From: Myxococcota bacterium
GTDB lineage: Bacteria > Myxococcota_A > UBA9160 > SZUA-336
Direction: 5' to 3'
DNA: 64,000 nucleotides
Assembly: GCA_040902485.1 (NCBI GenBank)
Contig: JBBDXF010000038.1
Span: 229,134 to 293,133, forward strand
Shown here: positions 631 through 58,231 of the stretch, in pieces
How the letters are laid out: every line of letters begins with the position of its first letter
How positions within the stretch are numbered: the stretch's first letter is position 1
Notes under the pieces: model-generated
Database searches by the model: none
Told to the model about the DNA's origin: nothing
Seen by the model: the letters and a program-made list of their open reading frames with translations, nothing else
Translations under genes and position numbers: made by a program

Positions 631-962
631 GCTAGCGTCCTCCTGTCTCGAGCTCCGGCACCTTGCCCGGGGGATCGAGCCGCGTGTACTCGGCCGAGCT
701 CTGGCCAGCCGGAGGCGTCACGATCTCGACCGACTTCGCGTAGATCGCGATGCGCACGCGCGAGGCGCAGGGTGACACGTTCGTGTCGTAGAGCTTCACG
801 GTCGGATCCTTCTGACGGGGCGTCGAACGGGCGCGCGCGTCGCGCTGGATCGTACACGAACGACGGCGCCGATGGCGCGCCTGACGTCTGCCGACGCGCG
901 TGGCTCGCCGCGTGCGATAGGCCTTCTCAATCCACGGGAATCCGCTTCCGATCGGGAGCGAA

Positions 963-3900
963 ATGCGCATTCCGCTACCCGTGGCGCGAGCCGAAGCTCT
1001 CGCAGTTGCGATCACTGCGATCAGCTGCCTGCAGGCATGGCCCGCCGTCGCGCAAGACGAGCCGCTGGCCGAGGCACCCTCCGAGGCGCAGGCGCTCGCC
1101 GAGACGCCGCGCGTGGCCGTCGCCCCGGCCACCTTCCCCGCCGAGCTCGGCTTCGCGCGCGAGCCGCTCGCGGAGCACGTGCGCATCCTGCTGCGCGAGG
1201 CCGCGGTCGAGGTGGCGCCCGCGGCGCAGCTGCGCACGCGGATCGCGGCGGCCGGCCCGAGCGACGTCGCCACGAGCTGCGCGCTGGTCGCGCTCGCAGC
1301 CGCCGACGGCGCGAGTCCGGTCGTGCTCGCGGACCTGCGCGCGACCGAGCGCGGCATCGACGTCGCGCTGCGCGTCTACGAGCCGACCGCCTGCACGCTC
1401 GAGAGCGCCGCGCGCGCGTCGGGCGGCGCGAAGACGCTCGGAGCCGCGCTCGACGCTTCGCTCGCGCGCGTGCTGCCCGCGCTGGGCGGCTCGGCGGATC
1501 TGCTGCCCGCCGCGAGCCTCGGCCTCTCGCAGCTCGCGGCCGAGAGCCGTGCGCTCGCGCTGCTCGAAGAAGCCGAGCTCGCGCGCGCCTGGCGCGCGCT
1601 CGAGGGCGACACCTCGCTGCTCGCGACCGCGCTGCGCAGCCGGATCGGGGCCATTGCCGCGTCGCGCGAGGCGCCACTGGCCGAGCGCGTGCGCTTGAAC
1701 ACCGCGCGCGGCGAGACGGCGCCGAACGACGTCCTCGCGCGGCAGATCCTGATCCAGGCCGCGCGCGCGCTGGACGGCGAGCCGGCCGACGCGCGGGTGC
1801 TGCTCGCGGCGGGCGAGCTCCAGCTCGGGCGCGGCGAAGCGGGCGAGGCGCGCCGCTATCTCGAGAAGGCCGCGGCGCTCGCGCCCGGCAACCCCGACGT
1901 CCACCAGAACCTGGGCCGTGCGTTCGCGCAGCTGGGCGACGACGTGGGCGCGCGCGCGAGCTTCGAGCGCGCCGCGCAGCTCGAGCCCGACTCCAGCCGC
2001 GCGCTCGAGGAGCTCGCGCAGCTCGAAGCGCACGAGCCGGCGCGCCAGGCTGCCGTGCTGCTGCGCGCCGGCGAACGCGCCGTCGGCGCCTACGACGAGC
2101 GCGCCGCGGAGCGCGCGTTCGCGAAGGTGCTGCTGCTCGATCCGCACAGCGTCCCCGCGGTGAAGGACCGCGCGGCGGTCCTGTACGCGCGCTTCGGCGA
2201 CGCCGAGCGCGCGCGCGCCACCTGGCAGGAGGCGATCGACGCCGGCGGCAGCTCGCCGGCGCGCGTGCTCGGCGCCGCGCAGGCGAGCCACGCGCTCGGC
2301 GATCGGGGCGCGGCCGAGACGGGCTTCCGCACGGCGCTCGAGCTCGACCCGACGAGCGTCGGCGCCGCGCTCGCCTTGGGTACGCTCTACACCGAGATGG
2401 GTCGCTTCGACGAGGCCCGCCCCTGGCTGGAGAAGGCCGTCGCGCTCGCGCCGCGCGATCCCGAGCCCAAGCGCGGGCTGGCCGTCGTGCTGCACCAGGC
2501 GGGCCAGTCGGACGCGGCACTCGAGCTGCTGCGCGCGGCCGAGCGCGCGAACGGCCCGACCACGAGCGTGCTGCGCATGCGCGCGACCATCCTGCGCGCG
2601 GGCGGCGACCCGGCCGGCGCGCTCGCGGTTCTCGAGCGCGCGATCGAGCTCGACCCGGTCGACGCCGGCCTGCGCGCCGAGCTCGCCGAAGCGCACGAGC
2701 TGCTCGGCGATCCGAGCGCGGCGGAGCGCGCGCGCGGCCATGCCACGCTGCTGACGCCGGCCCGTCCGCCGCCCCCGGAGGACGCCGCGACCGCGACCGC
2801 CGAGTCGTCGGGGGCGAGCGCGAGCGAGCTCGGCGACGTCGACGAGCGGCTGGCCGAGCTGATCCAGAGCTTCGTCGCGGTCGAGGCCGACACCGGCCGC
2901 GTCGCGCTGATCGGCGTGCGCGAGCGCAACGACTTCCTGGAGAATCCGCTGGCGTGCCTGAAGGCGCCGCTTCAGTGCCTGAAGCCGCGCGTTCCGAACC
3001 GCGACGCGCTCGATCGCGCGCTCGGTCGGGCGATCGGCGGCCAGTACGCGCTGATCCCGCGCGGCGAGATCGAAGAGGGCATGAAGAACAGCGCGAACCG
3101 CTCGCTGATCGCGGGGCTGCTCGCCTTCGAGCGCCAGGACTCGCTCGACGCGAACGCGCTGAGCGACATGAACCTGGCGCTGGGCAGCGACGCGCTGTTC
3201 CTGGCGCGCATCGAGCGCACGCCCGGCGGCGCCACCGCAGAGTCCGCTTCACGCTGCGGCGGCGAAACGCCCTGGCGGCTCGAGCTGCGCCAGCTCGCGG
3301 GCCGCTCGCCGGTGACGACGAAGATCCTGGGCAACGCGCTCTGCATCGACGCGCGCGGCGAATACTCGCGCTGGAATCGCCTGCTGCTCGGGCTGCTGGG
3401 CGCGGCCGGGCTCGCGCTCGCGTTTCAGCTGGTGCGCGGCTGGGGCAGCGTCTCGGTCACGGTCAACCTGCCGCCGCAGACGCGCGCGCTGTTCAGCATC
3501 AGCCTCTCGCGCCGGCCGCGGAAGGCGCGGGGCGCGAAGAGCCAGAAGAACAAGGAGCGCGCGAAGTCGCTGATCGAGGACGGCTTGCGCCGCTTGAACC
3601 GCTACGAGCGCGCGCTGCGCCAGGGCAGCCCCGTCGACTTCACGTGGATTCCCGCGCGCCGGCGTTCGTACTACGTGACGGTGCGCGGGCCGCTGATCAA
3701 CTCGGCGACCGGCGAGCTGATCGGCGATTTCCTCGAGGAGCAGCTCGTGCGCGTGCGGCGCGGCAAGGCCGAGGGCGTGAAGTTCGACCTGCGCCCGAAG
3801 GAGACGGTGCTCGAGATCACCGTCAGCGGCGCCGACAAGGCGGTCGGCGCGGTCGCGCTGGCGCTGCGCGGCGTGCCCTCGTCGCTGCGCTACGCCAACG

Positions 3901-5657
3901 ACGGCGGCGTATTCCTGTACCTGCAGCCGGGCAAGCACACGCTGCTGGTGGGCGCGGGCGATCGCCTGCTGGAGAAGCTGTTCGAGATCCGCTCCTACGA
4001 CACGATGCGGATGCAGATCGAGATTCCGCGCGTGCAGGAGTGGCTGTTCACGGGTTGCCCCGCGGCGGTCACCGCCTACCTCGAGGGCGACGTGCCGCGC
4101 GCCGCGGACGAGCTCGAGCGCGCGGGCGAGACCAAGGCGGCGAACAAGCTGCGCGCGAGGCTCGTGCGCGCGCAGGGCAAGACGGAGGTCGCGCAGAGCG
4201 CACCCGCCACGCCGAGCGATCCGCGCGCGGCCGCCGAGCTCGCGGAGTCCGCGCGCGATCCGCACAGCGCCGCGGCGCTGTTCGAAGCCGCCGGTGAATT
4301 CGCCGACGCCGCGGACGCGCATCGCGCCGCGGGCGATCTTGCCGCCGCAGCGCGCGCCTACGAGCGCGCGGGCGACCTCGCGAGCGCGATCGAGTGCGCG
4401 CAGCGGATGCCGGACGAGGAGTACCTGCTCGCGCTGTACGAGAAGCACGGCGACTCGTTCGAGGCCGGCGAGCTGGCCAAGCGGGCGCGCCAGACGCTGC
4501 GCGCGATCCACGCCTTCTCGCAGGTCGACCGGATCGACTCGAACTACCGCAAGGCGTGTCAGCGGCTGGTCGAGCTCCACAGCGAGCGCAACCAGTTCGC
4601 GCCCGCGCTCGAGAAGCTCGAGGAGCTGGTCGAGCTCGAGGGCGGCGAGCAGGCGCCGCTGCAGCTGCGCTCGCTGCTCGCGCGTCTGCTCGAGACGCTC
4701 GGCCGCGGCGTGGACGCGCTCACCGTCTGGGAGTCGATCGAGTCGCGCGACGCGGCCTTCCAGGACGCCTCCGCGCGCGTCGCGGGGCTGCGCGCCAAGC
4801 ACCGTCCACAGCCCGCGCCCGCCGCGAGCGCGCCGGCGAGTGCGCCCGCTGCCGGAGAGAGCCGCTACGAGATCCTCGAGGAGCTCGGCCGCGGCGCGAT
4901 GGGCGTGGTGTACAAGGCGCGCGATACGCGGCTCGGCCGCGTGGTCGCGCTGAAGCGCCTGACCGACAACCTGCGCGGCCACCCGACCGCGATCGCCTTC
5001 TTCGAGCGCGAGGCGCGCTCCGCGGCGGCGCTCTCGCACCCGAACATCGTGGTGGTCTACGACGCGGGCCAGGAGAACGGCCACTACTTCATCACCATGG
5101 AGCACCTGCAGGGCACGACGCTCGAGCAGATCCTGAAGCAGCGCGGGGCGATGAGCGCGCAGATCGTCGCTTCACTCGGCGTGCAGGTCTGCGCGGGCCT
5201 GCACTACGCGCACACCAACAAGATCATCCACCGCGACATCAAGACCGCGAACCTGTTCTTCACCCGCGAGCGGATCGTGAAGATCATGGACTTCGGTCTG
5301 GCCAAGATGGTCGAAGAAGTACGCAAGGGCGCGACCATGATCAGCGGCACACCCTACTACATGGCTCCGGAGCAGGCCCTGGGCGAGAACGTCGACCACC
5401 GCGCGGATCTGTACGCGCTCGGCGTCACCTTCTGGAACCTGCTGACCAACGCGTTCCCGTTCGAGACCGGGGACGTGACCTTCCATCACCGCAATACGCC
5501 CGCGCCCGACGTGCGCACGCGCGCGCCCGGCGCGCCCGCCGAGCTGGCTCTGCTCGTCGCGAAGCTGCTGGCCAAGCGGCCCGACGCGCGCTTCCAGAAC
5601 GCGGCGGAAGTCGCGCAGCTGCTGCAGCAGATCGCCGCCGCCGCGCCCGCCCCCTGA
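963..5657 (+). CDS. receptor-type Ser/Thr protein kinase with N-terminal signal peptide and TPR repeats, one TM helix, and a C-terminal Hanks-type kinase domain
   Basis: Signal peptide MRIPLPVARAEALAVAITAISCLQAWPAVAQ. Multiple TPR-like repeats around aa 260–560. Hydrophobic segment LLLGLLGAAGLALAFQLV near aa 815. Kinase motifs YEILEELGRGAMGVVYKA...ALKRL, HRDIKTANLFF, DFGLAK and APE lie in the last ~300 aa. Confidence 0.9.
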   Translation: MRIPLPVARAEALAVAITAISCLQAWPAVAQDEPLAEAPSEAQALAETPRVAVAPATFPAELGFAREPLAEHVRILLREAAVEVAPAAQLRTRIAAAGPSDVATSCALVALAAADGASPVVLADLRATERGIDVALRVYEPTACTLESAARASGGAKTLGAALDASLARVLPALGGSADLLPAASLGLSQLAAESRALALLEEAELARAWRALEGDTSLLATALRSRIGAIAASREAPLAERVRLNTARGETAPNDVLARQILIQAARALDGEPADARVLLAAGELQLGRGEAGEARRYLEKAAALAPGNPDVHQNLGRAFAQLGDDVGARASFERAAQLEPDSSRALEELAQLEAHEPARQAAVLLRAGERAVGAYDERAAERAFAKVLLLDPHSVPAVKDRAAVLYARFGDAERARATWQEAIDAGGSSPARVLGAAQASHALGDRGAAETGFRTALELDPTSVGAALALGTLYTEMGRFDEARPWLEKAVALAPRDPEPKRGLAVVLHQAGQSDAALELLRAAERANGPTTSVLRMRATILRAGGDPAGALAVLERAIELDPVDAGLRAELAEAHELLGDPSAAERARGHATLLTPARPPPPEDAATATAESSGASASELGDVDERLAELIQSFVAVEADTGRVALIGVRERNDFLENPLACLKAPLQCLKPRVPNRDALDRALGRAIGGQYALIPRGEIEEGMKNSANRSLIAGLLAFERQDSLDANALSDMNLALGSDALFLARIERTPGGATAESASRCGGETPWRLELRQLAGRSPVTTKILGNALCIDARGEYSRWNRLLLGLLGAAGLALAFQLVRGWGSVSVTVNLPPQTRALFSISLSRRPRKARGAKSQKNKERAKSLIEDGLRRLNRYERALRQGSPVDFTWIPARRRSYYVTVRGPLINSATGELIGDFLEEQLVRVRRGKAEGVKFDLRPKETVLEITVSGADKAVGAVALALRGVPSSLRYANDGGVFLYLQPGKHTLLVGAGDRLLEKLFEIRSYDTMRMQIEIPRVQEWLFTGCPAAVTAYLEGDVPRAADELERAGETKAANKLRARLVRAQGKTEVAQSAPATPSDPRAAAELAESARDPHSAAALFEAAGEFADAADAHRAAGDLAAAARAYERAGDLASAIECAQRMPDEEYLLALYEKHGDSFEAGELAKRARQTLRAIHAFSQVDRIDSNYRKACQRLVELHSERNQFAPALEKLEELVELEGGEQAPLQLRSLLARLLETLGRGVDALTVWESIESRDAAFQDASARVAGLRAKHRPQPAPAASAPASAPAAGESRYEILEELGRGAMGVVYKARDTRLGRVVALKRLTDNLRGHPTAIAFFEREARSAAALSHPNIVVVYDAGQENGHYFITMEHLQGTTLEQILKQRGAMSAQIVASLGVQVCAGLHYAHTNKIIHRDIKTANLFFTRERIVKIMDFGLAKMVEEVRKGATMISGTPYYMAPEQALGENVDHRADLYALGVTFWNLLTNAFPFETGDVTFHHRNTPAPDVRTRAPGAPAELALLVAKLLAKRPDARFQNAAEVAQLLQQIAAAAPAP

Positions 5658-5676: not shown

Positions 5677-7392
5677 TCAGCCTCGCGGCGCCAGGTCGAG
5701 GGCGCGCAGCCGGCGCAGCAGGCCCGCGGGCAGCGCGAGGTTCGCCGCGCGATCCGTCACCAGGCAGACGACGTTCGGTCCGGGCGCGAGCCGCGCGGAG
5801 TGCAGCGCGGGCTCGAGCTGATCGAGCGCGCTCGCGCACACGCCGCGGCAGCCCAGGCCCTCCGCGATGATGTCCCAGCGCACGACCTCCGACTCGCCGT
5901 CGAAGGCGATGTCGCGCTTCGCGCGGCCGTGCTGCGCGTCGGACGTCGAAGCGCGCTCGGCGAACACGATGGTCGTCACCTTCAAGCCCTCGCGCGCGGC
6001 GGTCTGCATCTCCATGAAGCTCTGCTCCGCGGCGTCCTCGCTGGTCACGCACACGACCTCGCGCCCGGGGTCGGCGAGCTTGGCGCCGATCGCGACCGGG
6101 ATGCCCGAGCCGAGCACGCCGTGGCGGTCGACACAGCGGTGGTACGAGCGCGCGCGCGTCGGCGGCAGCGCCCAGTGCGCCCACAGTGCGGTGTGCACCC
6201 CGTCGACGGCGTAGATCGTGTCGGGCCCGAACACGCGGCCGATCTCCAGGATCGCCCTGCGCGGATGGATGTCCGGTCCGCTGGCGCGGTCGAGCGCCGC
6301 GAACTGCTCCGCGCGCCAGGCGCGCGCGGCGGCCGCGTAGCGCGCCAGGTCGTTCGAGTCGGCGCCGTGCACGCGCCGCGCGCGCAGCAACCCGAGCAGC
6401 TCGCCGAGACCCGTGCGCGCGTCCGCCGCGATGTCGAGCGCGAGCGGTCGCGTGCCGCCCAGACTGCGCGGCGAGGCGCCGATCTGGATCCACGACTGGC
6501 GCGCGCCGTCGCTCGTGTCCTCGTCCAGGACCGGATCGAGATCGCCCATCGGCGAGCCCACGACCAGCACGACGTCGGCCTCGCGCAGCGCCGCCTGCGC
6601 GCCGCTGCTGAAGCCGCACAGCGCGTGCGGGTGGTCGAGTGGAAACGCGGAGCGGCCGCCCAGGGTCGTGACGATCGGACAGGCGAGCCGCTCCACGAGC
6701 TCGAACAGCGCGGCGTTCGCGCCGTCTCGGTCGACGCCGCCGCCGGCGACGACGAGCGGTCGCTCCGCGCGCGCGAGCATCTGCGCGGCCTGCTCGAGCC
6801 GGGCGCGCACCGGCTCCGCCTGCGCGGGTCGCTGCGGAATCGACGACGCGAACGACTCGTCGCGCGGGTTGCCCAGCTCGTTCAGCGCAGCTTGCGACAG
6901 CTCCAAAAGAACCGGCCCGGGTCGGCCGAGCGTGAGCTCCTGGAAGACGCGGTGCACGAGCTCGGGAATGCGCTCGCGCTCGCGCACCGATGCGCTCCAC
7001 TTCACGGCCAGCCGGTACAGGTCGAGCGGGTCCTGACCCGCGAACGCGGCCGAGGCGGCCGGCATCACCGAGTCGCGGCGTTGCTCGGACGTGATCACCA
7101 CGACCGGTATGCCGCCGCGCTGCGCGCCGACGACGCCGGGCAGCAGGTTCGCCGAGCCGGAGCCGGGGCGTCCGATCACCGCCGCCACCTGCCCGCTCGT
7201 GCGGTACAGACCCTCCGCGAGCTGAGCCGCGGCGGCCCCGCTCCGCACCGGCACGAAGCGCATGCGATTCGCGTCGAGCGATTCGAGCAGGGGCGCGAGC
7301 TCGGGCGCGGGCAGCCCCGCGACCAGCCGCACGCCCTCGTTGGCCAAGCAGTGCGCGAGCAGCGCCCCGCCGCTGATCTCGGACCCGCTCAA
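5677..7392 (-). CDS. thiamine-pyrophosphate enzyme family protein (acetolactate-synthase/benzoylformate-decarboxylase-like), possibly catalytically degenerate
   Basis: Full-length similarity to TPP enzymes (SGSEISGGALLAHCLANEGVRLVAGLP...GRPGPVLLELS...). The canonical HEQ catalytic segment reads VRSGAAAAQLAEGLYR. The GDG(x25)NN motif reads TSEDAA...FAERA. Start assigned to a TTG that overlaps the stop of the upstream small ORF; the start is uncertain. Confidence 0.7.
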   Translation of the reverse strand: MSGSEISGGALLAHCLANEGVRLVAGLPAPELAPLLESLDANRMRFVPVRSGAAAAQLAEGLYRTSGQVAAVIGRPGSGSANLLPGVVGAQRGGIPVVVITSEQRRDSVMPAASAAFAGQDPLDLYRLAVKWSASVRERERIPELVHRVFQELTLGRPGPVLLELSQAALNELGNPRDESFASSIPQRPAQAEPVRARLEQAAQMLARAERPLVVAGGGVDRDGANAALFELVERLACPIVTTLGGRSAFPLDHPHALCGFSSGAQAALREADVVLVVGSPMGDLDPVLDEDTSDGARQSWIQIGASPRSLGGTRPLALDIAADARTGLGELLGLLRARRVHGADSNDLARYAAAARAWRAEQFAALDRASGPDIHPRRAILEIGRVFGPDTIYAVDGVHTALWAHWALPPTRARSYHRCVDRHGVLGSGIPVAIGAKLADPGREVVCVTSEDAAEQSFMEMQTAAREGLKVTTIVFAERASTSDAQHGRAKRDIAFDGESEVVRWDIIAEGLGCRGVCASALDQLEPALHSARLAPGPNVVCLVTDRAANLALPAGLLRRLRALDLAPRG

Positions 7393-7607
7393 TGTACGAC
7401 TCTCGCCGTGCGGGCGCCGGCGCGCTTGCACGGCTCTTCGAGTCCCGCGACGAGGCCGCGTGCGGGCTCGGCTGCGACGCCTTCCGGTGTCACTCCGTCG
7501 GCGACCGGGTCGAGCTCGAACGGGGTTGCCAGACTCGCCAGGTGGCCGGTCTGGGTTGGTGACTCGAGGGCGAGGAAGTTCGCCTCGAGCGGCTTCTGCT
7601 GTTTCAT
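7389..7607 (-). CDS. small hypothetical protein (72 aa)
   Basis: ATG..TGA ORF encoding MKQQKPLEANFLALESPTQTGHLASLATPFELDPVADGVTPEGVAAEPARGLVAGLEEPCKRAGARTARVVH. Its stop overlaps the TTG start of the TPP-family gene. Weak RBS. Coding status not certain. Confidence 0.35.
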   Translation of the reverse strand: MKQQKPLEANFLALESPTQTGHLASLATPFELDPVADGVTPEGVAAEPARGLVAGLEEPCKRAGARTARVVH

Positions 7608-7767
7608 CGGACCTGCTTCGCTTTGGTTTCTTGCGGTCGGGCGGGACCATCGGCCTCCGGGCTCGTTCGCGCTTGATCTTCCACGACAATCGCTTGACAC
7701 TCGGCGCCAACGGTCGGAGGACACGGCGACGCACGTCCCGCGGATTCGAGTCGGGGGCGCGGCAGGG

Positions 7768-8769
7768 GTGCTCGAGGCCATCGCCAAGCGCGGCGGCTCG
7801 GTCGCGAGCGTCTTGCGCAAGGCCGGACTGCGCCAGCGCGACCTCGCCGACCCCGAGCACTTCGTCGACCTCGAGAAGATGCTCGTGCTGCAAGACGAGG
7901 CCGCGCGCGAGGTCGGCGACGATACGCTCGGTCTGACCCTCGCCCTCACCTACAACCCGAGCCGTCTCGGCGTGCTCGCCTATGCGCTGTTCAATGCGCC
8001 CACGGTCGGCGTGGCGCTGCACAACCTCGAGCGCTACGCGCACACGCTGCTGCACGGCGTGCGGGTCGTGATCGAGATGCGCGGCTCGGAGTGCGTGTCC
8101 GGCTACGACATCCCGGTGGGCGACCGCGAGCTGCGGCGCCAGAACGCGGAGGGCGCGAGCGTGGTCGCGTTCGAGGTGATGCGCCGCCTGATCGGCCCCG
8201 ACTGGCGGCCCAAGCGCGTGGAGTTCGGCCACCGCCGGCCCGCCGACACGACCCAACACAGTCGCGTGTTCGGCGCCCCGCTGCGCTTCGAAGCCGAGCA
8301 CAGCTTCGCGCTGGTCTACGACCGGTCCGACGTCGATCGGGCGGTGCAGGGCGCGGACGCGGGGATCCTGCCGATCGTGCAGCGCTACCTGGACGAGCTC
8401 CCCGCGCCCGCGGCTCGCTCCGACGCCTGGCCTCGCGAGGTCCGCGCGCTGATCGCGCGCGACATCTGCAACGGTCACCCCGACATGGAGCGGATCGCGC
8501 GCGCGCTCGGCCTCAGCGGACGCACGCTGCAGCGCCGTCTGGCCGAGCGTGGGTTGGTCTGGAAGACGATGGTCGAGGAGGTCCGCCGCGAGCTCGCGCT
8601 CCGCTACCTGAAGGACGTGAGCACGTCGCTGACCGAGGTCGCCTTCCTGCTCGGCTACTCCGATCTCTCGGCGTTCGGTCGCGCCTTCCGCCGCTGGACG
8701 GGCACGACCCCGGCGGCGCAGCGCCGACGCCTGCGCTCCGAAGCGAGCGGCGCCGCGACTGTGGTATGA
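7768..8769 (+). CDS. AraC-family transcriptional regulator
   Basis: C-terminal HTH_AraC signature (ICNGHPDMERIARALGLSGRTLQRRLAERG...LTEVAFLLGYSDLSAFGRAFRRWTGTTP). N-terminal AraC-binding-like domain. GTG start chosen downstream of a GGAGGA; an ATT or other upstream start is possible. Confidence 0.8.
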   Translation: MLEAIAKRGGSVASVLRKAGLRQRDLADPEHFVDLEKMLVLQDEAAREVGDDTLGLTLALTYNPSRLGVLAYALFNAPTVGVALHNLERYAHTLLHGVRVVIEMRGSECVSGYDIPVGDRELRRQNAEGASVVAFEVMRRLIGPDWRPKRVEFGHRRPADTTQHSRVFGAPLRFEAEHSFALVYDRSDVDRAVQGADAGILPIVQRYLDELPAPAARSDAWPREVRALIARDICNGHPDMERIARALGLSGRTLQRRLAERGLVWKTMVEEVRRELALRYLKDVSTSLTEVAFLLGYSDLSAFGRAFRRWTGTTPAAQRRRLRSEASGAATVV

Positions 8770-8788
8770 GACTCCGCGAGGAGAATCC

Positions 8789-10450
8789 ATGCCCGAGCTC
8801 GATCTCTGCATCCGCAACGCGCGCATCGTGGACGGCACCGGGCGCCCGGCCTTCGCCGGCGACGTCGGCATCGCGGGCGACCGCATCGCAGTGCTGGGAC
8901 GCGTCGACGCCGGGGCGGCGCGCGTGATCGACGCGCGCGGGCTGGTGCTCGCGCCGGGCTTCATCGACATCCACACCCACTACGACCCGCAGATCTGCTG
9001 GGACCGGCTCGCGACGCCCTCGATCGAGCACGGCGTCACGACCGTGGTGATGGGCAACTGCTCGCTCACGCTCGCGCCCGTGAAGCCGGGCCAGTCGCAC
9101 AAGCTCGTGTCGATGTTCTCGCGCATCGAGGACATCAAGGAGCCGACCTTCGCGGCGGGGGTGCCGTTCACCTGGGAGAGCTTCGGCGAGTACCTCGACC
9201 ACATCCGCGCGGGGCTGGGCCTGAACATCGGCGCGCTGGTCGGCCACTCGGCGCTGCGCTGGTACGTGATGGGCGCCGACTCGCAGGAGCGCGTCGCGAC
9301 CGACGCCGAGATCGCGCAGATGTGCCGGCTCCTCGAAGAGGCGATGGCCGCTGGCGCGATCGGGCTCTCGACCTCGTACGTCGACATCGACGAGAACATG
9401 AAGCCGGTGCCGAGCCGCTTCGCCGACATGCGCGAGAAGATCGCGCTGTGCCAGGCGATGGCGAAGAGCGGCCGCGGCGTGCTGCAGACGGTGCCCTACT
9501 TCATCGACATCGCGGAGCAGCTCGAGAACATCGCCGAGCTCGGCGAGCTCTCGCGCGCGTCGGGCGTGCTGTGCTCGCTCGCGCCGATCGTGTCGAGCCC
9601 GCTCGGCGGCGATGGCTGGCGGCGCTCGCTCGCGGCGCTGGAGGCCGAGCGCGCGAAGGGCGGCCGCGTCTACGCGCAGTCGATGCCGCGCACCTTCGAT
9701 CTGAACATCCGGCTGTCCGAGACGAGCTTCCTGTTGTTCGGCCTGCCGACCTGGAACCGCTTCATGAGTCTTCCGCTGCCCGAGCGTGTGAAGGCGTTCG
9801 GCGACCCGGCGAACCGCGCGCAGCTGGTGCAGGAGGGCATGCTGATCGCGCCGCTCCTGCTGGCGTCGTCGGTCGGCGAGGTGTTCTCGCCGGCGAACCA
9901 GCCGTTCGCGGGCCGCTCGCTGCTGCAGATCGCGGGCGAACGGAAGCACAGCCTGCCCGAGGTCATGCTCGACCTCGCGCTCGCCGACGGGTTGCGCACC
10001 GAGTTCTGCATCCGCGGCGCGATCCACGCGGACGTCGAGTCGGTGTCCGAGATCCTCTCCCACCCGCTCGTGCACGTGGGCGCCTCCGACGCCGGCGCGC
10101 ACATCGCGCAGTTCTGCGGCGCGGGCGACACCTGCTACCTGATCGAGCGCTTCGTGCGCGAGCACAAGAAGATGAGCCTGGAGCGCGCGGTCGAGCGGCT
10201 CACCGGCGAGCTCGCGCGCGACTGGGGCATCGCCGAGCGCGGCGTGATCGCGGAAGGCAAGTTCGCCGATCTCGTGCTGTTCGATCCGGAAACGATCGCG
10301 CGCGGACCCGAGGTGTTCGTGGGCGACGTGCCCGGCGACGGCAACCGCTACCTGCGCAGCGCCAAGGGCATCGAGGCCGTGATCGTGAACGGCGCGCTCA
10401 CGTTGGAGCGTGGCACCTACACCGCGGAGCGCGCGGGCCGGATCGTGTGA
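8789..10450 (+). CDS. N-acyl-D-amino-acid deacylase (D-aminoacylase) family amidohydrolase
   Basis: MPELDLCIRNARIVDGTGRPAFAGDVGIAGDRIAVLG...APGFIDIHTHYD is diagnostic of D-aminoacylase/amidohydrolase_3. A GAGGAG RBS lies 6 nt upstream. The gene starts 19 bp after the AraC stop. Confidence 0.85.
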   Translation: MPELDLCIRNARIVDGTGRPAFAGDVGIAGDRIAVLGRVDAGAARVIDARGLVLAPGFIDIHTHYDPQICWDRLATPSIEHGVTTVVMGNCSLTLAPVKPGQSHKLVSMFSRIEDIKEPTFAAGVPFTWESFGEYLDHIRAGLGLNIGALVGHSALRWYVMGADSQERVATDAEIAQMCRLLEEAMAAGAIGLSTSYVDIDENMKPVPSRFADMREKIALCQAMAKSGRGVLQTVPYFIDIAEQLENIAELGELSRASGVLCSLAPIVSSPLGGDGWRRSLAALEAERAKGGRVYAQSMPRTFDLNIRLSETSFLLFGLPTWNRFMSLPLPERVKAFGDPANRAQLVQEGMLIAPLLLASSVGEVFSPANQPFAGRSLLQIAGERKHSLPEVMLDLALADGLRTEFCIRGAIHADVESVSEILSHPLVHVGASDAGAHIAQFCGAGDTCYLIERFVREHKKMSLERAVERLTGELARDWGIAERGVIAEGKFADLVLFDPETIARGPEVFVGDVPGDGNRYLRSAKGIEAVIVNGALTLERGTYTAERAGRIV

Positions 10451-10455
10451 GCGGG

Positions 10456-11244
10456 ATGCGCGCGCGCCAGCTCGCCCCGATCCTGGTCCTGCTCCTCGCG
10501 GCCTGCAACGGTCCGCTGCCGTTCCTCGCCGGAGGAAAACTCACCGGCGAGAGCGCGTCCGCGCCGACCGACTGGTCGTTCGCGGGGGACTCCGGGACCG
10601 CGCAGCTCGAGACCCGGCCCGAGGATCCGTATTCGGTGAACCTCGTCTACACCGTCGTCGACGGCCAGCTCTACATCAACGCCGGCGACACCGAGACGAA
10701 CTGGGTGAAGCACATCGCGGCGAACCCCGACATGCGGCTGCGCATCGACGGAACGGTCTACGACCTGCGCGCGGTGCGAGTCACGGACACCGCCGAGATC
10801 GCGTCGTTCGCCGCGGCGTGGACGAGTCAGTCGATGTTCCGCCGCGATCCCGCGAAGCTCGACCCCGTCTGGATCTACCGGCTGGTCGCGCGTCAGCGCG
10901 CGGCCTCGTCGAGCTGGCGGCTGGTCTCGAGCAGGAGCTCGGTCATCGAGATGTCGAGCCTGGGCTCGGGGAGCAACGCGTTCGCGTCGAAGCGGAAGCG
11001 GCCGCGGGTGGCGCCGACCAGCACGACCGCGGCCGCAAGGCCGTCGGCCTTCTCGGTCCGGGCGTGCAGCGGCTGGCCGTCGCCGAGCCAGACGCGTGCC
11101 GGGCCCTGCTCGGTCTCGACCTCGAGCAGGCCGGACTTGCGGCCCATCTCGAGCATCTGCAGCACCACGAAGACCGGCATCTCGGCCAGCTCGCCGCTGA
11201 ACGCGTCGCCCGCGCCCTGCTTCGCGAACAGCACGGTCTCCTGA
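10456..11244 (+). CDS. lipoprotein with a DUF385/PNPOx-like (deazaflavin-nitroreductase-like) domain; the functional protein probably ends near 10890
   Basis: Lipobox LLLAACNG. Domain ...NLVYTVVDGQLYINAGDTETNWVKHIAANPDMRLRIDGTVYDLRAVRVTD.... No in-frame stop occurs until 11244, so the ORF tail is antisense to the convergent FHA gene and looks non-protein-like. Confidence 0.55.
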   Translation: MRARQLAPILVLLLAACNGPLPFLAGGKLTGESASAPTDWSFAGDSGTAQLETRPEDPYSVNLVYTVVDGQLYINAGDTETNWVKHIAANPDMRLRIDGTVYDLRAVRVTDTAEIASFAAAWTSQSMFRRDPAKLDPVWIYRLVARQRAASSSWRLVSSRSSVIEMSSLGSGSNAFASKRKRPRVAPTSTTAAARPSAFSVRACSGWPSPSQTRAGPCSVSTSSRPDLRPISSICSTTKTGISASSPLNASPAPCFANSTVS

Positions 11245-11576
11245 CCGTCGGGATCGGACAAGAGCGCCTCGAGCGACGCACGCGCGATGCAGAAGGTGAT
11301 CGCCGCCGAGCCCACGCCGATCCGGTCGCCCGGCTCGAGCGCGCGCGGGCCACCGATCAGCTCGCCGTTCACGAACGTGCCGTTCCGGCTCGACAGGTCC
11401 CGCACCAGGTACAGGCCGTCGTCCGTGTACACCTCGGCGTGTCGGCGCGAGGCGTCGTCCGTGGCGACCGGGAAGTCGCAGTCGCGGCCGCGCCCGATCG
11501 CGACACGCCCGCCAGCGGGGATCTCGACGGGGGCGAACGGCGGGCAGAAGAGCAGCGCTTTGCGGTCGGCGGGCAT
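10893..11576 (-). CDS. FHA domain protein with C-terminal DUF4388-like domain
   Basis: FHA signature RVAIGRGRDCDFPVATDDASRRHAEVYTDDGLYLVRDLSSRNGTFVNG...GDRIGVG. C-terminal segment LAEMPVFVVLQMLEMGRKSGLLEV is typical of DUF4388. Confidence 0.85.
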   Translation of the reverse strand: MPADRKALLFCPPFAPVEIPAGGRVAIGRGRDCDFPVATDDASRRHAEVYTDDGLYLVRDLSSRNGTFVNGELIGGPRALEPGDRIGVGSAAITFCIARASLEALLSDPDGQETVLFAKQGAGDAFSGELAEMPVFVVLQMLEMGRKSGLLEVETEQGPARVWLGDGQPLHARTEKADGLAAAVVLVGATRGRFRFDANALLPEPRLDISMTELLLETSRQLDEAAR

Positions 11577-11622: not shown

Positions 11623-13572
11623 TCACTTCGCGTCGGCGGTCCTCTCGGTCGCGCCGAGCCCCTCCATGAACGCGGCCTGCACCTGCGGCATGTACATGTT
11701 CCCGAGGTGCCCGCCGCCCGGGAACACGGTGATGCGGCCAGCGAAGACGCTCTCGAGCCAGCCGAGGTCGCTCGGCTGCAGGATGAAGTCGTCCTTGTTC
11801 GTGAACACCGCGATGCGCTCGTCTTCGCGCAGCCCGGCTTCCTGGCTGTACAGGTCGGCGGCGTCGAACAGCTGCGCGGTCGTGCGGGCGCCGCCCTCCT
11901 TCTCGACGAAGTATGGGATCGCCAGCTCGTCCATGTAGCGCTTCAGGGTATTGCTCTCGACCTCGACCGCGAACGGTCCGTGGAAGCCGCCGGCCGACCC
12001 GCCGGGAATCTCGCTGAGCGTCTTGCCGCCGCGCTCGCTGCTGGCGGCGATCGCCTGCATCGTCATCGCGCGCGAGGACAGGCCGATCAGGAACTCGGAG
12101 CCGTCGCGCGTGAACGGCAGTGTCTTGTACTTGCGGATCAGATCCTCGTCCTCGCCCTGCGCGAGCACGTAGGCCTTCTTGACCGTCTCGGTGGCCAGGT
12201 CGCGGCGCTGCGCATCAGGCCACTCGCGCGGCGCGTCGAAGTAGCTGTCGAACAGACCCGAGGCGTAGCCGAGGTTCACCGCGGGATTGATCGCGACGAT
12301 GCGCTCGAAGTGCAGCGCGCCCGGGGCCGTGTTCTTGCGCTCGAGCTGCGAGATGAACAGCGTCGCGATGCCGCCCAGCGAGTAGCCCATCAGCGACGAC
12401 GACGTGACCTTGCCGGGGTGGTTCGCCTCGATGTTGCCACGCATCTCGCCGAGCGCGCGGTACAGATCCTCGGCGTCGCTCGGCGTGTAGCCGGGATAGG
12501 TGGCGGAGAGCCCGCTCAGGATGAACTCGGGATTGAACGGGCTGCTCACGATCGCCGCCGAGTAGCCGCGCTGCCAGGCGGACTCCGCGAGCTTCACGGC
12601 GTTGGTGGTCGAGCGGTGCGAGCCGATGCCCGGAATGATGAACACGAGCGGCGCCGGCTTCTCCTGCATCCAGAGCGAGTACGGCACCGGCTTGCCCGTG
12701 GCTTGCGACGGCGCCTCGCCGCGCGCGTGCAGCGAGGGGAAGTTCGGATCGTCGAGCTTGGTCAGCATCACGCCGAGCGACGGATTCGGGTCGGCGTCGG
12801 TCCAGGCGATCTCCGGAATCTGATAGTCGCTGACCGCGATGTCGCGGTTGATCGCCCAGAGCGTGCGGACCGGCAGGTACAGGTCCATGCCGCTCTCGGT
12901 CATCATGTCGTAGGTGTTGATGCGCGAGCTGAAGCCGTTGACGGTGAACACGACGAACGGGATGCCGTAGGTCGCGACCCAGGTCGCCGGCGAGAGCGCG
13001 ACGTCGAACACCTTGCCCACGGTGTCGCGGCCGCTGCTCGGGCCGAGCATGGGGATGAAGAAGTAGAAGCCCGGCCCGATGCCCCACTTGCCGAACGCCT
13101 GGCCGACGTCCTCCTTGTAGGTCGGCACGCCGAGCGGCTTGGCGACGTCGAAGAAGCCCGCGACCCCGGCGGTGGTGTTGACCAGGAAGTTCCCCGTCTC
13201 GGTCCCCGCCTTGATCACCTCGCCCTGCAACAGCAGGCTCACGAAGCGGTCCGGGAAGTTCAAGTTGTAGGCGAAGTTGTCGATGCTCGTCCGCACCGCC
13301 CTGGGGAACACGGCGCGCCAGCCGAGCGCGACGGGCCGCACGCCGTAGTCGATCACGCCCTTGGTCGCGTGGTAGCTGCCGCGGTTGACCGGCTCGATCG
13401 GATCGTTCACGTACTGCACCAGCTCGTAGCTCTCGCCGGTGGTCTGGCGCCGGTGCTCCGACACGCCCATGACCGAGACCGTGTGCGGGCGCGCGTTGGA
13501 GTCGGGCGAAGCGCAACCGAACTGCAGCGAGCTCGCGATCGCCAACCCGATCGCGAGGAGTGTCCTGGGCAT
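11623..13572 (-). CDS. lipoprotein fusion: MlaA/VacJ-like domain plus alpha/beta-hydrolase (GxSxG) domain
   Basis: Lipobox LQFGCAS. N-terminal DPIEPVNRGSYHATKGVIDYGVRPVALGWRAV...NFAYNLNFPDRFVSLLLQG...NTTAGVAGFFDVA matches the MlaA/VacJ family. The C-terminal half contains GYSLGG nucleophile-elbow and alpha/beta-hydrolase-like segments. Confidence 0.8.
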   Translation of the reverse strand: MPRTLLAIGLAIASSLQFGCASPDSNARPHTVSVMGVSEHRRQTTGESYELVQYVNDPIEPVNRGSYHATKGVIDYGVRPVALGWRAVFPRAVRTSIDNFAYNLNFPDRFVSLLLQGEVIKAGTETGNFLVNTTAGVAGFFDVAKPLGVPTYKEDVGQAFGKWGIGPGFYFFIPMLGPSSGRDTVGKVFDVALSPATWVATYGIPFVVFTVNGFSSRINTYDMMTESGMDLYLPVRTLWAINRDIAVSDYQIPEIAWTDADPNPSLGVMLTKLDDPNFPSLHARGEAPSQATGKPVPYSLWMQEKPAPLVFIIPGIGSHRSTTNAVKLAESAWQRGYSAAIVSSPFNPEFILSGLSATYPGYTPSDAEDLYRALGEMRGNIEANHPGKVTSSSLMGYSLGGIATLFISQLERKNTAPGALHFERIVAINPAVNLGYASGLFDSYFDAPREWPDAQRRDLATETVKKAYVLAQGEDEDLIRKYKTLPFTRDGSEFLIGLSSRAMTMQAIAASSERGGKTLSEIPGGSAGGFHGPFAVEVESNTLKRYMDELAIPYFVEKEGGARTTAQLFDAADLYSQEAGLREDERIAVFTNKDDFILQPSDLGWLESVFAGRITVFPGGGHLGNMYMPQVQAAFMEGLGATERTADAK

Positions 13573-58100: not shown

Positions 58101-58231
58101 GCCGCTTCGCGCAGCAGCTCCGCCTCCCGCTCCAGGTTTTCCGCGGGATCCGGCAGGTTCTGCGCATGGCCGGGCCGCGCCGCCGCGAGCAGCAGCATGA
58201 GCGAGCCGGCGACCAGCAGGAGGCGACGCAT
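55118..58231 (-). CDS. secreted ankyrin-repeat protein (~30 ANK repeats, 1037 aa)
   Basis: Signal peptide MRRLLLVAGSLMLLLAAARPGHA. Continuous 33-aa ANK repeats (DGWTALMHAASTGQTETVKLLLERGA...). Same strand as, and 52 bp downstream of, the PqiC-like gene. Confidence 0.85.
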   Translation of the reverse strand: MRRLLLVAGSLMLLLAAARPGHAQNLPDPAENLEREAELLREAARVGDRLAVGALLSREVPVDSADRDGWTALMHAASTGQTETVKLLLERGASPTSRSEQGDTALQLAASHDDSTLAQALLDAGAPIDAADASGETALMKAAVRGSAAVVYVLVGRKASLDLTDRGGSTALMLAAIEGHVDVVRELAKAGADTEMRRRDGATALVVAAKQRRRKVVTELIEAKAEVNAAASDGATALFYAVRNGDRDQVDELVVAGADPDQPSANGDTPLHLAASRGDPEIALRLVDAGGDIKRRNALGLTPLVIALEARHDAVARVFSGVGSGDPTIGSAMLTMRGEDGRTALMFGASMGLANFVRSLIEAGAELDEQDAEGTTALILAVRGNRNDVITQLVEAGANLELADRTGANALAHAAARGQLKALKQLTTAGANLDFELGKQRLTPLMAGATTGNLEVVKFLLSAGADAKKTDASGSTARELAARAGFSRVAALLQQAESDPAFARTSASRGEHTILMDAAWRGNDATVVAELKGGASVDARNADGRTALMFAASAGRLNSAKLLVEAGAELEIKDDGGATALRAAVANGHLELVELLAGAGANVDAASRNGQTPLMYAVGKGHAPMVDLLLARGADPALRDPSGRSALLQAAASSQTEIARKLIAKGADPSTASLAGETALQQAARRGDYALVTLLLEVGAQPNTADRDGWTALMRAAAAGQSEIASRLLSSGADPNAANSAGQTALHLAARSGSVRVVELLVEAKVDPLARDLKGRTALMEAYDRGMARVFATIDRASAAAWAKLAEGDGDSLPGGASRAAMRDERELIEAARSGNLDEVKQVLGRGVPASARDFRGWNALLYAALAGKTEIVVELLRAGADGNEANDLGGTPLMAAASNDHADVVAVLLAMKVDPDMRDRDGMTALTFSAAAGNLPSTALLVEKGGADIEARDERSLTPLMVAAMGGYTEVVEYLLLRGANPAVTGRGGVTARSLAEERKYAPVVRLLDEHAKRAAAVERPPAAGEAKGPSDSGKP

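What the first reader, a model, noticed from the sequence alone, without database searches (positions are those of the whole stretch)
963..5657. Receptor Ser/Thr kinase with inverted domain order: periplasmic TPR sensor, single TM, long cytoplasmic linker, C-terminal Hanks kinase
**Seen in the sequence**
- The 1564-aa protein has a cleavable signal peptide, TPR-like repeats in the first ~600 aa, and one strong hydrophobic helix near aa ~815.
- Further TPR-like helices follow in the cytoplasmic part, and the complete kinase catalytic domain sits only at the extreme C-terminus (YEILEELGRGAMGVVYKA ... HRDIKTANLFF ... DFGLAK).

**Established knowledge**
- Most bacterial eSTKs (PknB-like) place the kinase N-terminally and the sensor C-terminally and extracytoplasmically.

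**Inference**
- The reverse arrangement implies a different topology and signalling logic.
- An FHA/DUF4388 protein, a likely phospho-Thr reader, lies ~5 kb away at 10893–11576.
Basis: partly seen in the sequence, partly recalled or inferred. Interest (0 to 1): 0.5.

Follow-up and report, generated by a model that had tools for sequence, protein, structure and literature searches.

The report
Bacterial receptor kinase, eukaryote-like membrane orientation
This is a real 1564-residue membrane protein whose sensor lies outside the cell at the front of the chain and whose Ser/Thr kinase lies inside at the very end, the reverse of the usual bacterial order; it belongs to a sizeable, uncharacterised family seen so far only in uncultured Myxococcota-type bacteria.

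Summary
ORF 963-5657 (+) is one uninterrupted coding frame. Its parts, in order:
- a conserved Sec-type signal peptide;
- an unannotated N-domain;
- Pfam TPRs (aa ~260-600);
- a Cys-paired juxtamembrane module;
- one TM helix (aa 806-826);
- two transthyretin-like beta-sandwiches;
- a TPR-like solenoid;
- a short Pro/Ala tether;
- a complete PknB-like kinase (aa 1300-1560).

Four full-length colinear orthologs (55-83% identity) exclude a fusion or frameshift artefact. A profile of the cytoplasmic spacer finds 455 cluster representatives at E<=1e-30. Of the 161 proteins inspected, 116 have a complete kinase, and in all 116 it is C-terminal. The ectodomain ranges from almost nothing to ~800 aa.

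The protein therefore has type I topology: N-terminus out, C-terminus in, like plant and animal receptor kinases. The kinase itself is bacterial-type. A 2025 atlas of bacterial kinases reports a TM N-terminal to the kinase in only 1 of 42 families.

Sensor outside and kinase inside is the same logic as PknB; only chain polarity and insertion route differ. The FHA/DUF4388 gene is real and syntenic in close orthologs (adjacent in one), but the whole block is syntenic, so a functional link is unproven.

I rate it a new variant of a known kind, of moderate interest.

The parts
954..958 (+). Shine-Dalgarno-like GGGAG, 4 nt (positions 959-962) before the ATG at 963
   Evidence: Read directly from the sequence. 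The peptide-level conservation just upstream of the start in orthologs reflects the same DNA motif.
963..5657 (+). Whole gene, 1564 aa plus stop. It is monocistronic: the upstream neighbour is divergent and the downstream neighbour is convergent.
   Evidence: ORF list and translation. GC3 ~0.95 in one frame throughout. Neighbour frames and identities.
963..1052 (+). Sec-type signal peptide, aa 1-30, with predicted cleavage at AVA|QD
   Evidence: Hydropathy 1.72 over aa 12-30. An n-region Arg, a hydrophobic core and AxA|Q are conserved at the same position in 5 orthologs. SP-like N-termini occur in most full-length family members. The lipobox-like AIS-C22 is not conserved.
1053..1742 (+). Periplasmic N-domain, aa 31-260; no known family; contains the Cys106/Cys144 pair
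   Evidence: No Pfam hit even at E<=10. A home-made HMM finds it in about 19 of the ~1500-aa family representatives inspected. The Cys pair is also present in P0001.
1743..2762 (+). Periplasmic TPR array, aa ~261-600
   Evidence: Pfam TPR_19 (1.4e-24), TPR_17, TPR_2, TPR_8 and others above their cut-offs.
2928..3377 (+). Periplasmic juxtamembrane module, aa ~656-805. It holds Cys765/Cys794 (spacing 29) plus a query-specific Cys665/Cys672 pair, and ends in the W-N motif at the membrane.
   Evidence: Alignment A1. Six of the 8 aligned proteins have both Cys with spacing 29. P0007 lacks both residues, and P0008 lacks the module altogether. No Pfam hit.
3378..3440 (+). Single transmembrane helix, aa 806-826, followed by invariant R825 and G828 (RGWG)
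   Evidence: KD 1.86. Hydrophobic in all 8 homologs, with positive charge on the C-terminal side. Invariant columns in A1.
3441..4052 (+). Two cytoplasmic transthyretin-like beta-sandwich domains, aa 827-1030. The first carries a basic, low-confidence insert at about aa 850-885.
4053..4817 (+). Cytoplasmic TPR-like alpha-solenoid, aa ~1031-1285
   Evidence: AlphaFold model m14b8e993926d has pLDDT 87-96 over this part. Foldseek hits consensus TPR and OGT TPR proteins at E 7e-8, probability 1.0. Weak Pfam TPR_19/TPR_14 hits at 5e-4.
4800..4862 (+). Pro/Ala-rich flexible tether, aa 1280-1300 (HRPQPAPAASAPASAPAAGES)
   Evidence: Read from the sequence. Poorly conserved in orthologs (28-71%). Low pLDDT at the end of the model.
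4860..5642 (+). Hanks-type Ser/Thr kinase domain, aa 1300-1560. Key residues are K1331, D1425, N1430 and D1443; the activation loop is KGATMISGTPYYMAPE (1455-1470).
   Evidence: Pfam Pkinase E 5.2e-50. The closest solved structure is M. tuberculosis PknB 1mru, E 1e-51. Each catalytic motif is found in 93-111 of 114 family kinases (82-97%).
10893..11576 (-). FHA + DUF4388 protein (227 aa), a candidate phospho-Thr reader. The link to the kinase is unproven.
   Evidence: Pfam FHA 1.7e-17 and DUF4388 3.2e-19. Syntenic with the kinase in L006 (adjacent), L007 and L009. Absent near the distant members L001-L003.

Best explanation
The gene encodes a single-pass, type I (N-out, C-in) receptor Ser/Thr kinase.

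**Shown by sequence and comparison**
- A Sec signal peptide exports about 775 residues to the periplasm: an unannotated N-domain, a TPR array, and a juxtamembrane module probably held by a disulfide.
- One TM helix follows. Within two or three residues (RGWG) it runs into a cytoplasmic stalk of two transthyretin-like beta-sandwiches and a TPR-like solenoid, about 460 aa in all.
- A roughly 20-residue Pro/Ala tether then carries a catalytically complete PknB-like kinase at the extreme C-terminus.

**Inferred mechanism**
- The periplasmic TPR/N-domain binds a protein or peptide ligand, or an envelope component.
- Binding changes the oligomeric state or clustering of the receptor. A single TM helix is not expected to pass on much else.
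- Clustering brings the tethered kinase domains together, allowing trans-autophosphorylation of the activation loop (T1458/S1461/T1463).
- The active kinase then phosphorylates cytoplasmic substrates. The cytoplasmic TPR-like solenoid may serve as a docking or autoinhibitory scaffold.
- pThr sites would be read by FHA proteins, of which the syntenic FHA/DUF4388 protein is one candidate.

**Family pattern**
- The cytoplasmic stalk-plus-kinase core is constant across the family, while the ectodomain is swapped or lost. This is what one expects of a modular receptor family.
For: **The gene is real and complete**
- One coding frame throughout.
- Start and signal peptide conserved in 5 orthologs.
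- Full-length colinear orthologs of 1537-1562 aa in four MAGs.

**Topology**
- A hydrophobic N-terminal segment and one internal hydrophobic segment.
- Charge bias of 4-9 K/R after the TM helix against 0-3 before it, in 8 homologs.
- Mature pre-TM cysteines are even in number. The 765/794 pair is present in the 6 homologs that have it and absent together in P0007, as expected of a periplasmic disulfide.
- No other hydrophobic segment lies between aa 827 and the kinase.

**Domains**
- Pfam TPR and Pkinase.
- AlphaFold models with pLDDT 80.6 and 88.2.
- The kinase has all catalytic motifs and is closest to PknB.

**Family**
- A profile of the cytoplasmic spacer finds 455 representatives at E<=1e-30.
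- In all 116 inspected proteins with a complete kinase, the kinase is C-terminal, with a median tail of 5 aa.
- In 88 of them a hydrophobic segment lies just upstream of the first cytoplasmic domain, at positions ranging from residue 1 to ~800.

**Conservation gradient**
- Kinase 77-95% > beta-sandwich 61-90% > solenoid 55-83% > ectodomain 41-80%, as is typical of receptors.
Against: - No dedicated signal-peptide or TM predictor, and no experiment. Topology rests on hydropathy, charge bias, cysteine pairing and conservation.
- Nothing identifies a ligand. The N-domain and the juxtamembrane module have no known relatives.
- Activation by oligomerisation is carried over from PknB and receptor kinases; it was not tested.
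- Gene context is metabolic and gives no functional clue.
- The FHA link could be plain synteny.
Confidence: 0.7

Rival explanations
1. The topology is the same, but the periplasmic TPR region is not a ligand sensor. It is a scaffold that docks the protein onto an envelope machine such as secretion, pilus, polysaccharide export or outer-membrane biogenesis. The kinase would then be localised, not switched, and would act constitutively on nearby cytoplasmic components.
For: - TPRs are protein-protein interaction modules.
- The best NCBIfam TPR matches are envelope-assembly TPR proteins (PrsT, PilW, PgaA), though all fall below their cut-offs.
- Many family members have almost no ectodomain yet keep the stalk and kinase. 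The cytoplasmic core can therefore work without a large sensor.
Against: - No envelope-machine genes lie beside the gene here or in orthologous loci.
- The NCBIfam hits are generic TPR similarity well under threshold.
- The ectodomain, at 41-80% identity, is under clear constraint across orthologs. That fits either role.
Confidence: 0.2
2. The long ORF is an artefact: two genes (an exported TPR protein and a kinase) joined by an assembly or frameshift error, or a wrong start codon that creates a false signal peptide.
For: In one MAG (L002) the TPR part and the kinase part are called as two overlapping genes. P0006 looks broken.
Against: - In L002 the split is a single frameshift inside an otherwise colinear ortholog: query aa 112-526 align in frame 3, then aa 530-1560 in frame 2. 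The tail of the upstream ORF reads as out-of-frame sequence.
- The window ORF has uniform GC3 in one frame.
- L004, L005, L006 and L009 carry uninterrupted orthologs of 1537-1562 aa, and about 45 further representatives are 1450-1630 aa long.
- No start codon exists upstream of 963, and the orthologs start at the same place.
Confidence: 0.02
3. The topology is reversed or the protein is soluble. Either the N-terminal 800 aa are cytoplasmic and the kinase is exported, or the internal hydrophobic stretch is a buried helix and the whole mature protein is periplasmic or secreted.
For: - The transthyretin-like beta-sandwiches resemble domains that are usually extracytoplasmic, such as the carboxypeptidase regulatory domain, pilins and a PpkA fragment.
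- No dedicated predictor was run.
Against: - The kinase has a complete ATP-dependent catalytic core, and the periplasm lacks ATP (a point also made in PMC11032199).
- Basic residues cluster strongly on the C-terminal side of the helix in all homologs.
- The TM segment is conserved in hydrophobicity but not in sequence (33-85% identity), which is typical of a lipid-facing helix.
- Paired cysteines occur only on the N-terminal side.
- Family members with only an N-terminal TM helix have their basic residues after it.
Confidence: 0.03
4. The N-terminus is a lipoprotein signal, with cleavage before Cys22 at the lipobox-like A-I-S-C. The ectodomain would then be lipid-anchored at its N-terminus as well as held by the TM helix at its C-terminus.
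For: TAIS-C22 fits my reading, from memory, of the permissive PROSITE lipobox pattern. L006 has a canonical LVA-C at the same place.
Against: Cys is absent or in a non-lipobox context in L004, L005, L009 and P0001. AxA|Q is present in all five orthologs.
Confidence: 0.05

Closest known systems
PknB / PrkC / StkP-type bacterial receptor Ser/Thr kinases (Hanks-type, PASTA sensors)
   Same: - The kinase domain is closest to M. tuberculosis PknB (E 1e-51) and has all Hanks motifs.
- Both have a single TM helix, an extracytoplasmic sensor and a cytoplasmic kinase.
   Different: - The order is reversed. PknB runs kinase, disordered juxtamembrane linker, TM, sensor (type II, no signal peptide). This protein runs signal peptide, sensor, TM, folded stalk, kinase (type I).
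- There are no PASTA domains. The NF033483 score is 279, below the cut-off of 450.
CCM1 family of the bacterial STK atlas (bioRxiv 10.1101/2025.01.12.632604)
   Same: [quoted passage not shown]
   Different: - CCM1 is described as Chloroflexota plus Cyanobacteria and other phyla. It has an N-terminal TM or FHA domain and sometimes a C-terminal PQQ domain.
- Neither a beta-sandwich/TPR stalk nor a large TPR ectodomain is mentioned for it.
- The atlas's two Myxococcota families have an N-terminal kinase.
- Membership could not be tested because the profiles are not available.
Eukaryotic type I receptor Ser/Thr kinases (plant receptor-like kinases, TGF-beta receptors)
   Same: The layout is the same: signal peptide, ectodomain of repeats, one TM helix, cytoplasmic juxtamembrane region, C-terminal kinase. 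(The comparison rests on my own knowledge; the atlas notes the eukaryotic TM-then-kinase order.)
   Different: - The kinase is bacterial-type. PknB scores 1e-51, while the best eukaryotic kinase-domain hit, NEK1, scores 1e-30; an EGFR chain at 1.5e-32 had no stretch passing the threshold on its own. The layout is therefore convergent, not inherited.
- The ectodomain is TPR.
- The cytoplasmic spacer is a folded module of about 460 aa.
Planctomycetota and Sorangium STKs with periplasmic TPR or WD40 arrays (PMC11032199)
   Same: These are single-pass membrane STKs with periplasmic TPR arrays and a cytoplasmic kinase.
   Different: There the TPR/WD40 arrays are at the C-terminal end and the kinase is N-terminal.
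PknG (kinase + TPR) and the PpkA T6SS kinase
   Same: - A TPR domain is attached to a Hanks kinase, as in PknG.
   Different: [quoted passage not shown]
- PpkA has an N-terminal kinase. RtkS, its partner in 9k1u, is periplasmic (PMC6082577), so that sandwich is probably periplasmic, whereas here it is on the kinase side of the membrane.

Membership tests
Hanks-type (eukaryote-like) Ser/Thr protein kinases | Pfam Pkinase match above the gathering score | tested here: met
   PF00069 scores 170.7 bits against a cut-off of 31.7, over aa 1302-1547.
Hanks-type (eukaryote-like) Ser/Thr protein kinases | Complete catalytic motifs: GxGxxG, VAIK Lys, HRD..N, DFG, APE | tested here: met
   GRGAMG 1309, K1331, HRDIKTAN 1423, DFG 1443 and APE 1468.
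Hanks-type (eukaryote-like) Ser/Thr protein kinases | Phosphotransfer activity on Ser/Thr | not testable with these tools
   Needs an in vitro kinase assay.
Stk1/PknB PASTA-domain kinases (NF033483) | Whole-protein score above the curated cut-off, with PASTA repeats C-terminal to the TM helix | tested here: not met
   279 bits against a cut-off of 450. The match covers the kinase domain only, and there is no PASTA hit in Pfam.
Type I single-pass receptor topology (N-out, C-in) | Cleavable N-terminal signal peptide | tested here: met
   Heuristic test only. The n-region, h-region and AxA|Q are conserved in 5 orthologs and in most full-length family members. SignalP was not available.
Type I single-pass receptor topology (N-out, C-in) | Exactly one further membrane-spanning helix, with positive charge on the C-terminal side | tested here: met
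   KD 1.86 at aa 806-824. The only other 19-mers above 1.6 are the signal-peptide core and aa 105-123 in the ectodomain, and no segment downstream of aa 827 exceeds 1.39. There are 4-9 K/R after the helix and 0-3 before it in 8 homologs.
Type I single-pass receptor topology (N-out, C-in) | Experimentally determined orientation | not testable with these tools
   Needs PhoA/LacZ or protease-accessibility mapping.
TPR repeat proteins | Pfam TPR models above their gathering scores | tested here: met
   TPR_19 scores 86.6 bits (cut-off 25), and TPR_17, TPR_2, TPR_8 and others match within aa 260-600. The cytoplasmic solenoid (aa 1031-1285) is TPR-like by fold only.
CCM1 family (bacterial STK atlas) | [quoted passage not shown] | tested here: met
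   The TM helix is at aa 806-826 and the kinase at aa 1300-1560.
CCM1 family (bacterial STK atlas) | Family-specific co-conserved residues in the kinase domain (omcBPPS constraints) | not testable with these tools
   The profiles and supplementary tables are not held. The taxa described for CCM1 differ from this Myxococcota-type lineage.
Transthyretin-like / carboxypeptidase regulatory-like beta-sandwich | Fold match to solved members | tested here: met
Transthyretin-like / carboxypeptidase regulatory-like beta-sandwich | Sequence-family membership (Pfam CarboxypepD_reg, PEGA and similar) | tested here: not met
   No Pfam family matches at E<=10 for aa 827-1032.
Kinase-FHA signalling pair | An FHA-domain protein genetically linked to the kinase across lineages | tested here: inconclusive
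   FHA/DUF4388 is confirmed. It is syntenic in L006 (adjacent), L007 and L009, but so are the flanking genes. It is absent near the distant members L001-L003.

The most novel reading that the evidence does not exclude
This gene represents a large, so far undescribed family of bacterial receptor Ser/Thr kinases that converged on the eukaryotic type I receptor-kinase layout. The family has a constant cytoplasmic core: TM helix, two transthyretin-like beta-sandwiches, a TPR-like solenoid and a tethered PknB-like kinase. It also has an interchangeable ectodomain, ranging from none to ~800 aa of N-domain plus TPR. The folded stalk that begins right at the membrane would make signal transfer mechanistically different from the disordered juxtamembrane linkers of PknB, PrkC and StkP.
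Probability: 0.45. Interest if true: 0.6.

Novelty: new variant of a known kind. Interest (0 to 1): 0.45.

Why it matters
Almost everything known about bacterial receptor Ser/Thr kinases comes from the PknB layout: kinase first, sensor last, with a disordered juxtamembrane linker.

This family has the opposite polarity, needs Sec export of a large ectodomain, and replaces the linker with a folded stalk that starts two residues after the membrane. It therefore offers an independent natural test of how a single-pass bacterial kinase carries information across the membrane.

It also shows that the 'eukaryotic' receptor-kinase layout arose separately in bacteria around a bacterial-type kinase.

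In practical terms, members are currently labelled only 'TPR repeat protein', 'protein kinase' or 'Bud32'. The cytoplasmic spacer profile built here could define a family for annotation.

Tried and rejected
**Searches that gave little or nothing**
- An exact look-up of the protein found nothing in the collection.
- The word-indexed homology search with aa 600-1300 found only 12 relatives. With the beta-domain alignment it returned only fragments. The exhaustive profile search was the one that revealed the family.
- The first genome-contig scan, using query-specific peptides, found no relative, and alignment A2 was too diverse to seed a scan. The second scan, with A3, gave 7 MAG loci.
- Pfam at E<=10 finds nothing for the N-domain, the juxtamembrane module or the beta region.
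- A profile of the beta region against PDB sequences gave only a marginal hit to a PpkA fragment (E 0.007).
- Foldseek on the whole cytoplasmic spacer was swamped by TPR hits, so the beta region was modelled separately.
- The afdb50 library was unavailable.
- Perez et al. 2008 (myxobacterial kinome) is not held, and no supplement of the atlas is held. Two literature searches for prior descriptions of C-terminal-kinase bacterial receptors returned nothing relevant.
- The promoter and terminator scan was empty or at chance level.

**Ideas considered and dropped**
- Short homologs as evidence for a separate 'kinase-only' gene. They are cut by contig ends or by a frameshift.
- Lower-ranked representatives as N-terminal-kinase proteins sharing the solenoid. 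They too have C-terminal kinases.
- Membership of an antiphage kinase family. MAD6 and PglW score far below their cut-offs.
Full report
**1. The ORF is real and complete**

The ORF at 963..5657 (+) translates to 1564 aa. The window is about 72% G+C, where long spurious ORFs are common, so I checked codon-position composition. GC3 is 0.89-0.99 and GC2 is 0.37-0.62 in this one frame in every 100-codon block from start to stop. There is no frame switch.

ATG 963 is the first possible start after the in-frame stop, and GGGAG lies at 954-958. The upstream neighbour (acyl-CoA dehydrogenase-like) is divergent. The downstream neighbour (a thiamine-pyrophosphate enzyme, 5677..~7350) is convergent. The gene therefore stands alone. 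It is the only kinase in the 64-kb window.

**2. Anatomy**

Pfam places TPR models above threshold within aa ~260-600 and Pkinase at aa 1302-1547 (E 5e-50). Hydropathy gives two strong segments: aa 12-30 (1.72) and aa 806-824 (1.86). Nothing between 827 and the kinase comes close to TM strength.

The kinase carries every catalytic motif:
- GRGAMG at 1309;
- K1331;
- HRDIKTAN at 1423;
- DFG at 1443;
- APE at 1468;
- Thr/Ser residues in the activation loop.

Its closest solved relative is M. tuberculosis PknB (E 1e-51). The best eukaryotic kinase-domain match, NEK1, is 21 orders of magnitude weaker in E-value.

No Pfam model, even at E<=10, matches aa 31-260, aa 620-805 or aa 827-1032.

The first strand of the first sandwich starts at W827, two residues after invariant R825. 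The stalk is therefore joined almost directly to the TM helix. A 21-residue Pro/Ala stretch (aa 1280-1300) links the solenoid to the kinase. It is poorly conserved.

**3. Topology**

No dedicated predictor was available, so I used four independent lines of evidence.

- *Signal peptide.* The five orthologs with intact 5' ends all start at the same place. Each has MR, a hydrophobic core and AxA|Q: AVA|Q, AFA|Q, ARA|Q, AVA|Q and ALA|Q. Most full-length family representatives also begin with textbook signal peptides.
- *TM helix.* The internal hydrophobic segment is present in all eight aligned homologs. There are 4-9 Lys/Arg in the 30 residues after it and 0-3 in the 20 before it. Its sequence is poorly conserved (33-85%) while its hydrophobicity is kept.
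- *Cysteines.* Those in the mature N-terminal part come in pairs: 106/144, 665/672 and 765/794. The 765/794 pair keeps a spacing of 29 in six homologs, and both residues are missing together in P0007. This is the pattern of periplasmic disulfides.
- *ATP.* A complete ATP-dependent kinase has to be cytoplasmic.

Together these give N-out, C-in: a type I single-pass protein. A lipobox-like AIS-C22 is not conserved, so I prefer cleavage by signal peptidase I.

**4. Not an artefact**

tblastn finds uninterrupted, colinear orthologs in MAGs that represent species in GTDB:

| Locus | Identity | Length |
|---|---|---|
| L004 | 82.6% | 1562 aa |
| L005 | 65% | 1559 aa |
| L006 | 64.5% | 1537 aa |
| L009 | 54.6% | 1551 aa |

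All are labelled Myxococcota, Myxococcales or 'delta proteobacterium'.

The apparently short homologs are explained:
- P0005 and P0003 start at contig edges.
- P0007 is separated from an upstream signal-peptide-plus-TPR ORF by a single frameshift near L002:4925.
- P0008 is genuinely short: signal peptide, a stub of about 45 aa, the TM helix, then the same cytoplasmic core.

**5. The family**

The word-indexed search found only 12 relatives. An exhaustive profile search with the cytoplasmic spacer (alignment A2) against 1.84 billion cluster representatives gave far more: 8329 hits at E<=1e-3 and 455 at E<=1e-30.

I annotated the best 150, together with the first 12, using home-made HMMs for each module. 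The results were as follows.
- All 116 proteins with a complete kinase domain have it at the C-terminus, with a median of 5 residues after it.
- 88 of them have a hydrophobic 19-mer just upstream of the first cytoplasmic module.
- About 45 representatives are 1450-1630 aa long and have the query's full layout.
- Others carry ectodomains of about 150-420 aa, or a signal peptide plus a stub of 40-80 aa.
- In a more distant group that lacks the beta-sandwiches, there is only an N-terminal TM helix followed by basic residues.

The cytoplasmic core is thus constant and the ectodomain is modular. Among orthologs the kinase is most conserved (77-95%), then the sandwiches (61-90%), the solenoid (55-83%) and the ectodomain (41-80%). 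Public sources give these proteins only generic names, and every sequence looked up is metagenomic.

**6. Comparison with what is known**

The 2025 atlas of bacterial Ser/Thr kinases (bioRxiv 10.1101/2025.01.12.632604) states that the commonest layout is a kinase followed by a C-terminal TM helix (25 of 42 families). The eukaryotic order, TM before kinase, occurs in only one family, CCM1. The atlas describes CCM1 as Chloroflexota plus Cyanobacteria and others. Its two Myxococcota families have C-terminal TM, TPR or peptidase-like domains.

In Planctomycetota and Sorangium the periplasmic TPR arrays are likewise C-terminal (PMC11032199).

I could not test whether this family is CCM1 or falls in the atlas's unclassified third, because no profiles or supplements are held.

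**7. How it probably works**

*Shown:* a type I membrane protein with a periplasmic TPR-containing ectodomain, a folded cytoplasmic stalk and an intact, tethered kinase.

*Inferred, by analogy with PknB-type and eukaryotic receptor kinases:*
- Ligand or partner binding to the ectodomain changes oligomerisation or clustering.
- The tethered kinases then trans-autophosphorylate their activation loops and phosphorylate cytoplasmic targets.
- The cytoplasmic TPR-like solenoid is a likely docking or autoinhibitory surface.
- The basic insert in the first sandwich (aa ~850-885, low confidence in the models) may lie against the inner leaflet.

The main rival is that the ectodomain is a localisation scaffold and not a switch. 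The data do not separate the two.

**8. The FHA neighbour**

The 227-aa FHA + DUF4388 protein at 10893-11576 (-) is real. In L006 its ortholog sits immediately downstream of the kinase gene, convergent and overlapping the stop. In L007 and L009 one amidohydrolase gene intervenes. In the window three genes intervene.

However, the flanking genes are syntenic too: acyl-CoA dehydrogenase upstream, and the MlaA-fusion, the 436-aa hypothetical protein and NadE beyond. The FHA gene is the last gene of that minus-strand run and not a partner in an operon with the kinase. The three distant family members examined have unrelated downstream genes. The FHA protein is a reasonable first candidate to test, nothing more.

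**9. Verdict**

It is a new variant of a known kind, namely a bacterial Hanks-type receptor kinase. It stands for a sizeable uncharacterised family with a distinctive folded cytoplasmic stalk. Interest is moderate. It is surprising mainly to kinase specialists, and no function or ligand can yet be named.

Noticed in passing
window 55118-58231 (-): A 1037-aa protein made almost entirely of ankyrin repeats (Pfam Ank_2 E 1e-178, 16 stretches). This is unusually large for a bacterial ankyrin protein.
   Followed up: no
window 11623-13572 (-): An MlaA lipoprotein domain (aa 56-244, E 3e-52) is fused to a long C-terminal half with weak alpha/beta-hydrolase similarity. It lies in a minus-strand gene run of NadE, a 436-aa protein with no Pfam hit, this MlaA fusion and FHA/DUF4388. 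The run is syntenic in L006.
   Followed up: partly
L002 ~4925; P0006: In one MAG the ortholog is split into two called genes by a single frameshift. Another close relative (P0006, on a 260-kb ENA contig) looks frameshifted several times. These may be assembly errors or pseudogenes; which was not resolved.
   Followed up: partly
window 5677-10450 versus L004, L006, L007, L009: The content between the kinase gene and the FHA gene varies among orthologous loci: nothing in L006; an amidohydrolase in L007 and L009; a TPP enzyme plus amidohydrolase in L004, where the contig ends before any FHA gene; and a TPP enzyme, an AraC regulator and an amidohydrolase in the window. This looks like a small insertion hotspot.
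   Followed up: partly
window 1053-1742 (aa 31-260): The periplasmic N-domain begins right after the signal peptide with a 'VAVAP..FP' strand, as in many orthologs ('IAVLP', 'VIIAPFP'). From memory only, it resembles the TolB-N/LpoB-like periplasmic domains often fused to TPRs. There is no Pfam hit, and its structure was not modelled.
   Followed up: no
P0102, P0114, P0125, P0133, P0144 (representatives, ~1600-1630 aa): Some full-length family members have Lys/Ile/Phe-rich, low-GC-style sequences. This suggests the family extends beyond high-GC Myxococcota. Their taxonomy could not be looked up.
   Followed up: no
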